A stretch of DNA of 64,000 nucleotides from the human T2T-CHM13v2.0 reference genome, Homo sapiens. Shown one piece after another: positions 15,226 through 31,250 of the stretch. Numbering within the stretch: the stretch's first letter is position 1; each line of letters starts with the position of its first letter. The translations under genes and the position numbers were made by a program. The stretch is taken from assembly GCF_009914755.1 (NCBI RefSeq), contig NC_060926.1, one strand, 5' to 3'. The notes under the pieces are model-generated. The model had not been told where the DNA came from. It ran no database searches and saw nothing but the letters and a program-made list of their open reading frames with translations.

Positions 15226-15720
<495 letters not shown>

Positions 15721-27059: not shown

Positions 27060-27221
27060 CTTTGTTTTTATTTGCCTCTGTATAAGAAAATCCTGGTGCT
27101 TTTCCTGTTTTTCAGCCAAAGAGGCCCCAGAGATTTGGACCAGTCTTGTGATTTTCACCTTTTTCCACTGTGTGGCACTGAGCACATTTCTGAATAAAGG
27201 TCTTCTTGCCTGCTTCAGCAT
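27060..27221 (-). CDS. PDE11A: PDE11A isoform 3 (PDE11A3) first coding exon, 54-aa unique N-terminus; the rest of the gene lies left of the window
   Basis: [54 protein letters not shown] recognised as the PDE11A3 N-terminus; acceptor ttgcag at 27240-27235; donor AAG|gtaaaa at 27060/27059, phase 0. Confidence 0.9.
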
Positions 27222-27228
27222 CTCCCAT
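27060..27228 (-). pseudogene. CYCTP: Testis cytochrome c pseudogene, first coding exon (nonsense at codon 39)
   Basis: [55 protein letters not shown](G); CXXCH motif; 169 coding nt ending in phase 1 at a GT donor; TGA at 27114-27112. Confidence 0.96.
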
Positions 27229-27936
27229 GTTGCTCTGCAATGGAACATTAAAACCACAAACCAAAAAAATATATATATTAGATTTTCAAAGCCGGGGAGA
27301 AAAAAGAATTCCATCATTTTGACTGAAGTGAATGCTGATGATGTTAAACAAAAACATATCCTTTAAAGCATGCAAGCTTTAATGTATGAGTGCTCAAAAA
27401 CACAGATATATTATAACATCCAATTTCATAAAGACAATCATCTCATTAATTAGGCTTATTTTAAGTTTCTAGCCATAGCTACTTCAGAAACTGCTATTGG
27501 TATCAAACGGGTTTTACTTCAGCCTTCAAAGAATTATATTAATTTATCCAGGTCAATTATATTCCTTTTCATTTCTAAAAAGTGCATGTGCAAAAGATGA
27601 TGTAAAACATATAGGTCTAATTTTGCAACCCCTTATTTAAAAATAAGAATAGAACAAATAGGAAAGGTGTTTAACTATGATATTACTATGAGTATTTATA
27701 TGTCTACAATAATCAAACTGTAAAAATAAAAATTATACAGAAAAGAATGCAGCCATAGAAACCTGTATGTAACATAATTTCTCATTTACTTTACATTCTT
27801 AGCTATAGATACCAGATTAGATCAAGCATTATCTGAAAGCAATCAGAAATAACATTATTGAATTCAGTCAGCAATAGTATGCATTTAATACTAATGTAGT
27901 GGAAAATACACAGTTTTAAGTAGTAAAGACCCTACT

Positions 27937-30964: not shown

Positions 30965-31250
30965 AAAACGGCCAGCGGTTCCTCCCTTTGCCCCCGCTCC
31001 CAGCAGTCACCTGGAACAGCCACCTGGCCAGAGTCCACGCCTCAACTTCGAGGCTGGCGATCCAGAAAGAGCACCTCACGCCCTGGGCTGCAAGCGCAGC
31101 CGGACGCGCGCGACCAGTGATCGCCAGCCAATGGCAAGCCGGGACCCGGTCCCACTGCTGATTGGCCCCCAGATCCCGTGGGATCTCACCTCTCGCAGAG
31201 GCTTAAAGCCTTGTACTTGCTGTGCAGTGCTTGGCTCTGCGTGCCCGCTG
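30965..31250 (-). promoter_or_regulatory. PDE11A: Small CpG-rich promoter and probable non-coding exon 1 of PDE11A3/CYCT
   Basis: Local CpG cluster; CCAAT 31128-31132 and Y-box core CTGATTGG 31158-31165; minus-strand donors CAG|gtgact (31011/31010) and GAG|gtgaga (31190/31189); exact TSS not determinable. Confidence 0.65.

What the first reader, a model, noticed from the sequence alone, without database searches (positions are those of the whole stretch)
27112..27228. The dead cytochrome c frame persists as a strong-Kozak overlapping uORF encoding a 38-aa CXXCH micropeptide
Seen: the CYCT ATG has A at -3 and G at +4 (gcaacATGG), lies upstream of the weaker PDE11A3 ATG (gagATGC) and stops only at codon 39, past the PDE start. 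Established: an overlapping uORF allows the main ORF only by leaky scanning, and holocytochrome c synthase (HCCS) recognises the N-terminal helix plus CXXCH. Inference: every PDE11A3 mRNA may produce [38 protein letters not shown]. This peptide keeps Cys, Cys, His and the helix Phe but lacks the Met80 ligand, like a microperoxidase haem peptide. The pseudogene frame could therefore both throttle PDE11A3 translation and make a haem-binding peptide. I know of no description of this.
Basis: inference. Interest (0 to 1): 0.8.

Follow-up and report, generated by a model that had tools for sequence, protein, structure and literature searches.

The report
Dead cytochrome c start precedes PDE11A3
The start of a long-dead testis cytochrome c gene sits seven bases ahead of the start of a testis phosphodiesterase isoform on the same messenger RNA, so it probably diverts some ribosomes into making a 38-residue fragment that is most likely an unused by-product.

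Summary
On the minus strand, an ATG at 27228 (A at -3, G at +4) opens 38 codons that end at TGA 27114-27112. A second ATG at 27221 (G at -3, C at +4) opens the PDE11A3 frame.

The ORF is the first coding exon of the testis cytochrome c pseudogene CYCTP. It matches mouse testis cytochrome c at 34 of 38 residues. The gene has three defects: the CGA>TGA nonsense change, an Alu in exon 3, and a lost stop codon.

The exon survives as exon 2 of PDE11A3. The spliced 92-nt leader has no ATG, so the relic ATG is the first AUG on that mRNA. Pierron et al. 2011 already described the two-frame overlap and the nonsense change being silent in PDE11A3. The uORF and peptide reading did not turn up in my searches.

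The strong Kozak context is inherited. Conservation is the same before the stop (34/38) and after it (15/17), so nothing points to selection on the peptide. At 7-nt spacing, published reporters show the two AUGs compete, so this is not simple leaky scanning.

Published HCCS work shows haem attachment to such fragments, but with poor release, instability and inhibition of the enzyme.

Verdict: a real, ordinary overlapping uORF that is a legacy of the dead gene. A haem peptide is unproven and unlikely.

The parts
27112..27228 (-). 38-codon relic ORF of testis cytochrome c (CYCTP), including its TGA stop. It forms an overlapping upstream ORF on PDE11A3 mRNA.
   Evidence: Translation. PDB 2aiu match at 34/38 identical, E 1.9e-20. 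Pfam PF00034 at 1e-6.
27226..27228 (-). Inherited CYCT start codon. It is the first ATG of the spliced PDE11A3 leader, in context AGCAAC|ATG|GG.
27219..27221 (-). PDE11A3 start codon at +8 in frame +1, in context TGGGAG|ATG|CT. It is formed by the Asp-Ala codons of cytochrome c.
   Evidence: The bonobo NCBI model P0003 begins here. The frame joins the next PDE11A exon.
27112..27114 (-). TGA at the position of Arg39 (counting Met as 1). This is the CGA>TGA change. Its T is the third base of a GCT Ala codon in the PDE11A3 frame. The stop ends 52 nt before the exon end.
   Evidence: Pierron 2011 passages.
27060..27234 (-). Shared exon: the first coding exon of CYCT and exon 2 of PDE11A3.
   Evidence: Hub annotation. 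Splice sites read. All three frames translated.
31011..31096 (-). Non-coding exon 1 (86 nt, no ATG), followed by a gt donor.
15653..15720 (-). CYCT exon 3, 5' part ([22 protein letters not shown]), with an intact ag acceptor.
15355..15652 (-). Alu insertion splitting CYCT exon 3. It is flanked by a target-site duplication (AAATATATCCCTGGxACT, with one mismatch). Boundaries are approximate.
   Evidence: Read directly from the sequence. Alu-like ORFs appear. 'Alu' is my own recognition of the sequence; no repeat tool was run.
15229..15354 (-). CYCT exon 3, 3' part. After the duplicated KYIPGT it matches 2aiu at 20 of 26 residues. The original stop is lost, and the frame runs 10 further codons.

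Best explanation
The 38-codon ORF is the truncated first coding exon of the primate testis cytochrome c pseudogene (CYCTP).

The gene was killed by CGA>TGA at Arg39. It was later wrecked further by an Alu in exon 3 and by loss of its stop codon. Its promoter, non-coding exon 1 and first coding exon are still used as the alternative 5' end of the testis isoform PDE11A3.

The PDE11A3 AUG is created by the Asp-Ala codons (GAT GCT) of cytochrome c. It lies at +8 in frame +1.

On that mRNA the old cytochrome c AUG is the first AUG after a 92-nt leader free of AUGs, and it keeps its inherited strong context. A substantial share of scanning ribosomes should therefore start there, make the 38-residue fragment, and terminate 52 nt before the exon junction.

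Because the two AUGs are only 7 nt apart, they compete with each other and do not obey a strict first-AUG rule. Both ORFs are read.

The net effect is a passive, constitutive reduction of PDE11A3 output, possibly with some nonsense-mediated decay. The peptide is a short-lived by-product and not a selected haem peptide.

Shown here: the identity of the ORF, the exon structure, the order and context of the AUGs, and frame continuity into PDE11A. Inferred: initiation at either AUG, the size of the effect, and the fate of the peptide.
For: **Identity**
- 34/38 identical to mouse testis cytochrome c before the stop, and 15/17 after it.
- Exon 3 was found with an Alu and a lost stop.
- The peptide is unique in the assembly: 39 matches, the window's own locus at 100%, the next best at 82%.

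**mRNA structure**
- Exon 1 has 0 ATG, the leader is 92 nt, and the ATG order is 27228, 27221, 27187.
- The frame of 27221 ends exon 2 on a complete codon. The next PDE11A exon, about 90 kb downstream, opens in phase with GAT CGA CGA, giving DRRFNDEIDK. This matches the bonobo model P0003.

**Legacy, not design**
- Under random synonymous codon choice for the same cytochrome c residues, a +8 ATG arises in 50% of 200,000 draws. The +1 frame stays open in 75%, and both occur in 38%.
- Identity to mouse does not differ before and after the stop (p = 1). It does not differ significantly between exon 2 (49/55) and exon 3 (20/26; p = 0.19).

**AUG competition**
- In HeLa, a frame +1 ATG at +8 cut upstream-AUG output to 0.33, at +14 to 0.74 and at +20 to 0.92.
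- Firth and Brierley 2012 make the same point for AUGs within about 10 nt.

**Published history**
- The stop is present in 12 of 12 primates and 0 of 3 non-primates, and is synonymous in PDE11A3 (Pierron 2011).
Against: - No ribosome profiling, initiation mapping, proteomics or reporter data were available, so translation from 27228 is inferred from the scanning model only.
- The annotated transcription start is taken from the hub's table. If many transcripts start elsewhere, the leader would differ.
- I could not examine other primates, so I cannot say whether the ATG is kept more or less often than neutral decay predicts.
- Exon 2 is somewhat better conserved than exon 3 (89% against 77%). 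This could reflect constraint from either frame; with these numbers it is not significant.
- The HeLa +8 result comes from a different mRNA whose AUG contexts I did not read, so the shares here are not known.
Confidence: 0.6

Rival explanations
1. The relic frame is maintained because it does two jobs: it throttles PDE11A3 translation, and it yields a 38-residue peptide that HCCS loads with haem, giving a microperoxidase-like molecule.
For: - The peptide keeps Phe11, Lys8, Lys9, Lys14 and Cys15-x-x-Cys18-His19, with the same spacing as mouse testis cytochrome c.
- Human HCCS attaches haem in vitro to 16-, 20- and 56-residue N-terminal peptides but not to 9- or 11-mers.
- Yeast truncations H45X and K60X are haem-stained after co-expression with HCCS in E. 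coli. The last residue of the human peptide aligns with yeast chain residue 42, so H45X ends within a few residues of it.
Against: - There is no sign of selection on the peptide: 34/38 identical before the stop against 15/17 after it.
- The ATG and its context are inherited.
- Haem-attached fragments are poorly released (20-mer 14% against at least 62%; the 56-mer is likely not released) and block cytochrome c maturation. The expected product is therefore an HCCS-bound inhibitor, not a free haem peptide.
- Truncated forms accumulate at very low levels (the wild-type lane was diluted 100-fold), and the shortest gave no product.
- Import of such a fragment into the intermembrane space was not tested.
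Confidence: 0.07
2. PDE11A3 is itself a chance chimera. The residual CYCT promoter still fires, and its exon 2 donor splices to the next PDE11A acceptor. The +1 frame happens to be open and in phase. In this case neither the relic ORF nor the PDE11A3-specific N-terminus is under selection, and the transcript is mostly noise or an NMD substrate.
For: - The +8 ATG together with an open +1 frame is expected in 38% of synonymous versions of the exon.
- The N-terminal 57 residues match no Pfam family.
- The human window and the bonobo model differ at 2 of the 54 unique N-terminal residues. Both are amino-acid changes in the PDE11A3 frame, by my reading of the codons.
- The relic stop lies upstream of many exon junctions.
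- The reviews I read cite only localisation and a predicted mass for PDE11A3.
Against: - RefSeq keeps a PDE11A transcript with these exons (hub table).
- A bonobo gene model has the same junction.
- The nonsense change is silent in the PDE11A3 frame, although one site is weak evidence.
- Two differences are too few to measure constraint.
- I could not read Yuasa 2000, the paper that cloned and expressed PDE11A3.
Confidence: 0.2
3. The first AUG is largely bypassed in vivo, for example through other transcription starts or because the downstream AUG wins at this short spacing. In this case there is little relic peptide and little effect on PDE11A3.
For: - Close spacing favours the downstream AUG.
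- The downstream AUG has a purine at -3.
Against: - The first AUG has both A at -3 and G at +4 after a 92-nt leader free of AUGs.
- In the HeLa test, the upstream AUG still kept a third of its output.
- No RNA structure is predicted that would favour one AUG over the other: the exon 2 fold has z = +0.46, and 132 of 200 shuffles fold at least as well.
Confidence: 0.1

Closest known systems
Overlapping upstream ORFs (out-of-frame uAUG whose ORF ends inside the main ORF), such as uORF2 of ATF4
   Same: The AUG is upstream and out of frame, and its ORF stops after the main AUG. Ribosomes that start there are lost to the main ORF.
   Different: The uAUG here is the start codon of a dead gene, not a regulatory element that arose in a leader. 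It lies only 7 nt from the main AUG. No stress-responsive arrangement of several uORFs is seen. The ATF4 comparison is recalled, apart from the title listed.
Closely spaced out-of-frame AUG pairs that make an mRNA effectively dicistronic (tymovirus overlapping ORFs, influenza B segment 6 NB/NA; Matsuda and Dreher 2006)
   Same: Two AUGs within about 10 nt in different frames both initiate and compete with each other. The HeLa reporter used the same +8, frame +1 geometry.
   Different: In the viruses both products are functional proteins. Here the upstream product is a 38-residue relic. The 7-nt spacing in turnip yellow mosaic virus is recalled; the paper was not held.
Testis cytochrome c (mouse Cyct, PDB 2aiu) and the human pseudogene CYCTP as described by Pierron et al. 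2011
   Same: It is the same locus and the same nonsense change, with the same statement that the exon is read in two frames.
   Different: The passages I read do not mention the AUG order, a uORF effect, or a peptide product. That paper places the stop at 'position 49', whereas here it is codon 39 by alignment to 2aiu.
Synthetic and truncated N-terminal cytochrome c fragments used as HCCS substrates (16-, 20- and 56-mers; yeast H45X and K60X), and microperoxidases
   Same: They contain helix 1 plus CXXCH and lack the Met ligand. Haem is attached by HCCS.
   Different: Those are laboratory constructs or proteolytic products, whereas this one would be genome-encoded. The published fragments stay bound to HCCS and inhibit it, unlike free microperoxidase MP-11, which is made by digesting the holoprotein.

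Membership tests
Overlapping upstream ORF | An AUG lies upstream of the main AUG on the same mature mRNA. | tested here: met
   The spliced exon 1 plus exon 2 has its first ATG at 27228 and its second at 27221. The exons are from the hub annotation.
Overlapping upstream ORF | The ORF is out of frame with the main ORF and terminates downstream of the main AUG. | tested here: met
   The frame offset is 7 nt (+1), and the stop is at 27114-27112.
Overlapping upstream ORF | Ribosomes initiate at the upstream AUG. | not testable with these tools
   No ribosome profiling data were available. This is inferred from the context A(-3)/G(+4) and the leader free of AUGs.
Overlapping upstream ORF | Removing the upstream AUG raises main-ORF output. 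| not testable with these tools
   This needs a reporter experiment.
Mitochondrial cytochrome c (Pfam PF00034), functional protein | A complete domain with a CXXCH motif and the distal Met ligand. | tested here: not met
   Only profile positions 1-34 of 90 are covered. There is a stop at codon 39, exon 3 is split by an Alu, and the original stop is lost.
HCCS substrate | A CXXCH motif with the His. | tested here: met
   CAQCH is at residues 15-19.
HCCS substrate | Helix 1 with the conserved Phe three residues before the first Cys, plus basic residues. | tested here: met
   F11-I-Q-K-C15, with K8, K9 and K14 present. The peptide aligns without gaps to 2aiu residues 1-38, with 2 changes in residues 1-19 (I10T, V12I).
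HCCS substrate | The peptide reaches the intermembrane space and receives haem in cells. | not testable with these tools
   No data here. The published analogues were tested in vitro or in E. coli.
HCCS substrate | The product folds and is released from HCCS. | not tested
   The peptide lacks everything after residue 38. Published 20-mer and 56-mer fragments are poorly released, so release is not expected.

The most novel reading that the evidence does not exclude
In primate spermatogenic cells, the relic cytochrome c AUG is the main initiation site on PDE11A3 mRNA. Its 37-residue product (after Met removal) enters the intermembrane space and is haem-ligated by HCCS. It then stays bound, as published synthetic fragments do. 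The dead gene would thus encode an endogenous competitor or inhibitor of cytochrome c maturation, or a small haem peptide, in testis.
Probability: 0.04. Interest if true: 0.75.

Novelty: new member of a known kind. Interest (0 to 1): 0.33.

Why it matters
If the relic AUG is used, most ribosomes on PDE11A3 mRNA may never make PDE11A3. That would bear on why evidence for this isoform rests mainly on mRNA, and on how to read variants in this exon.

It is also a clean natural case of a pseudogene start codon turned into an overlapping uORF only 7 nt from the host start. This makes it a convenient test of the close-AUG competition model in a human gene.

The haem-peptide idea would matter to cytochrome c biogenesis only if the peptide were shown to exist. 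Nothing here shows that.

Tried and rejected
- **RNA structure near the AUGs:** the fold of exon 2 is no better than shuffles (z = +0.46; 132 of 200 shuffles fold at least as well). No role for structure is proposed.
- **Selection on the peptide:** comparing identity to mouse before and after the stop, and between exon 2 and exon 3, gave no significant difference (p = 1 and p = 0.19). For exon 3 I counted only the 26 residues after the duplicated KYIPGT. The 22-residue 5' part was left out because its alignment to 2aiu was not printed (one search showed 21/22 identity to a bovine somatic chain).
- **Openness of the PDE11A3 frame as a sign of selection:** rejected, because the frame is open in 75% of synonymous versions.
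- **Homologue search with the PDE11A3 N-terminus (longer proteins):** 3 hits among 11 candidates. One is a bonobo model. The other two are unnamed 155- and 157-residue ORFs that read through the splice donor, so they are raw genomic frames and not evidence of the isoform elsewhere.
- **Other primates:** their genomes could not be examined, and Pierron's Figure S3 is a pptx that cannot be read here.
- **Papers not held:** Yuasa 2000, Matsuda and Dreher 2006, Zhang and Gerstein 2003.
- **Literature search on CXXCH plus micropeptide terms:** badly framed. None of the 12 listed papers holds CXXCH, so it says nothing either way.
- **Read-through of the TGA restoring cytochrome c:** rejected, because exon 3 is also broken.

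Full report
**Observation**

On the minus strand the sequence reads gcaacATGGgagATGCtg.
They end at TGA 27114-27112.
- The ATG at 27221, 7 nt downstream in frame +1, stays open to the exon end at 27060.
- The contexts are AGCAAC|ATG|GG (A at -3, G at +4) and TGGGAG|ATG|CT (G at -3, C at +4).
- The exon 27234-27060 has a ttgcag acceptor and an AAAG|gtaaaa donor.

**What the ORF is**

The ORF is the start of a cytochrome c gene.
- The peptide matches mouse testis cytochrome c (PDB 2aiu) at E 1.9e-20 with 34 of 38 residues identical. This is better than its match to any somatic cytochrome c. It also matches Pfam PF00034 over profile positions 1-34 of 90.
- Read through the stop with X, the rest of the exon continues the match. 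Codons 40-56 are 15 of 17 identical, and the TGA sits where the mouse has Arg39.
- The last exon of the old gene lies at 15720-15229 on the same strand.
  - Its 5' part is intact.
  - It is then split by an Alu-like insertion of about 300 bases flanked by a duplicated AAATATATCCCTGGxACT. Recognising it as an Alu is my own reading of the sequence.
  - Its 3' part matches 2aiu at 20 of 26 residues after the duplication.
  - It runs 10 codons past the original end.
- So the gene carries at least three defects, and read-through of the TGA could not restore it.
- In the whole assembly the 38-mer has 39 matches. The window's own locus is 100% identical and the next best is 82%.

**Why the exon is still an exon**

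The hub's table lists 31011-31096 and 27060-27234 as exons of a non-selected PDE11A transcript.
- Exon 1 is 86 nt with no ATG. Spliced to exon 2 it gives a 92-nt leader (63% G+C), and the first ATG is the cytochrome c one.
- The frame of the second ATG ends exon 2 on a whole codon.
- About 90 kb further along the gene, the next PDE11A exon begins in phase after a ttatttttag acceptor with GAT CGA CGA TTC (DRRFNDEIDK...).
- An NCBI bonobo model (P0003) begins MLKQARR, runs through the same junction, and carries a GAF domain.
- The start of PDE11A3 at 27221 is therefore well supported, and the relic ATG lies in its 5' UTR.

**What is already in print**

- Pierron et al. 2011 (PMC3196546; I read the passages found with the terms, not the whole text) make four relevant statements:
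  - Pde11a has integrated the first exon of testis cytochrome c in its Pde11a3 form.
  - The same DNA codes for both proteins in different frames.
  - The CGA>TGA change is present in 12 of 12 primates and 0 of 3 non-primates examined.
  - The change is synonymous in the Pde11a3 frame.
- I confirmed the last point from the sequence: the T is the third base of a GCT Ala codon.
- That paper writes 'position 49' for the stop. By alignment it is codon 39.
- The passages do not mention the order of the AUGs, a uORF effect or a peptide.
- Full-text searches gave the following:

| Search terms | Papers found |
|---|---|
| PDE11A3 + cytochrome c | 1 (Pierron 2011) |
| PDE11A3 alone | 7 |
| CYCTP | 3, unrelated |
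| PDE11A + uORF | 0 |
| PDE11A + 'upstream open reading' | 0 |

- Subscription papers and supplementary ORF catalogues were not searched.

**Is anything being maintained?**

The strong context of the first ATG is that of a once-functional gene and needs no further explanation.
- Identity to mouse is the same before the stop (34/38) as after it (15/17; Fisher p = 1).
- Exon 2 as a whole (49/55) is not significantly better kept than exon 3 (20/26; p = 0.19).
- The PDE11A3 frame needs no selection to be open either. I redrew synonymous codons for the same cytochrome c residues 200,000 times:
  - a +8 ATG arose in 50% of draws;
  - the +1 frame stayed open in 75%;
  - both occurred in 38%;
  - only 1 codon junction can ever create a +1 stop.
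- Two unnamed 155- and 157-residue ORFs, about 70% identical in that frame, read through the donor. They are raw genomic frames.
- The human window and the bonobo model differ at 2 of the 54 unique residues. This is too few to judge constraint.

**How it most likely works**

- By the scanning model, a first AUG with A at -3 and G at +4 after a leader free of AUGs captures many ribosomes. This step is inference.
  - Firth and Brierley 2012 (passage) summarise that a downstream AUG within about 10 nt raises leaky scanning.
  - A 2022 Genome Biology study (PMC9743702; passages) shows that closely spaced AUGs compete.
  - In that study's HeLa reporters, a frame +1 ATG at +8, the same geometry as here, cut upstream-AUG output to 0.33. 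The values were 0.74 at +14 and 0.92 at +20, partly through lower mRNA.
  - Inhibition by an upstream AUG also weakens as it nears the main AUG.
- So both ORFs are probably read. The relic takes a share, possibly the larger one, and PDE11A3 is damped but not blocked.
- Termination 52 nt before the exon junction, with many junctions further on, could add nonsense-mediated decay (inference).
- No RNA structure is predicted that would bias the choice of AUG (z = +0.46).

**The peptide**

It keeps Phe11, Lys8, Lys9, Lys14 and CAQCH. There are only two changes in residues 1-19 against mouse.

| Study | Substrate tested | Result |
|---|---|---|
| Sutherland et al. 2021 (PMC8112865; passages) | 16-, 20- and 56-residue N-terminal peptides with purified human HCCS | Haem attached |
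| Same study | 9- and 11-residue peptides | No haem attached |
| Same study | Release of the haem-attached 20-mer | 14% released, against at least 62% for full length |
| Same study | 56-mer | Likely not released |
| Same study | 16- and 20-mers added before apocytochrome c | Block maturation of apocytochrome c |
| Zhang, Stevens and Ferguson 2014 (PMC4158909; passages) | Yeast truncations H45X and K60X co-expressed with HCCS in E. coli | Haem-stained, at very low levels (wild-type lane diluted 100-fold) |
| Same study | Yeast truncation G29X | No reproducible product |

- The last human residue aligns with yeast chain residue 42, so H45X ends within a few residues of it.
- The expected outcome, however, is an unstable fragment stuck on HCCS and not a free microperoxidase.
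- Its import into mitochondria is untested.

**Verdict**

- This is a real overlapping uORF that is a legacy of a dead gene. It sits on an mRNA whose two-frame exon was already described.
- The uORF consequence appears to be new in print within what I could search, and it is easy to test.
- The haem-peptide reading is possible but unsupported.
- Interest is modest.

Noticed in passing
window 15355-15652 (-): An Alu-like element is inserted in the last exon of CYCTP. It carries a target-site duplication of about 18-22 nt that repeats the KYIPGT codons, with one mismatch between the two copies. This is a second, independent disabling event.
   Followed up: partly
window 15229-15258 (-): The original stop of testis cytochrome c is lost. 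The frame runs on for 10 codons ([10 protein letters not shown]) past the residue that ends the mouse protein.
   Followed up: partly
window 31161-31165 and 31128-31132 (-): Two CCAAT motifs, one inverted (ATTGG), lie about 65 and 35 nt upstream of the annotated start of exon 1 in a G+C-rich stretch. This is presumably the old CYCT promoter now driving PDE11A3.
   Followed up: no
window 31031-31029 (-), position 66 of the spliced leader: A CTG with A at -3 and G at +4 lies in frame with the relic ORF, 9 codons upstream of its ATG. It could give an N-terminally extended form.
   Followed up: no
window 27187-27185 (-): A third ATG, from the Lys-Cys codons, lies in the remaining frame and opens a 10-codon ORF.
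   Followed up: no
L001 1508-1661 (-), G000:C2 about 178497015-178497168: This is the next PDE11A exon joined to exon 2. If the TGA were absent, the cytochrome c frame would run on into it for 5 codons (GSTIQ) and then stop. In a species with an intact Cyct and the same splice, this would give a fragment of about 61 residues, close to the 56-mer tested with HCCS.
   Followed up: partly
window 27148-27150 and 27071-27073 (-): The human window has Ile where the bonobo model P0003 has Asn (KVKI/NTRL) and Thr (RQI/TKTK). By my reading of the codons, both are amino-acid changes in the PDE11A3 frame. In the cytochrome c frame, one is Lys>Asn and the other is silent.
   Followed up: partly
PMC3196546, section 'Cytochrome c testis isoform': The paper places the nonsense change at 'position 49'. 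Alignment to PDB 2aiu places it at residue 39, counting the initiator Met.
   Followed up: yes
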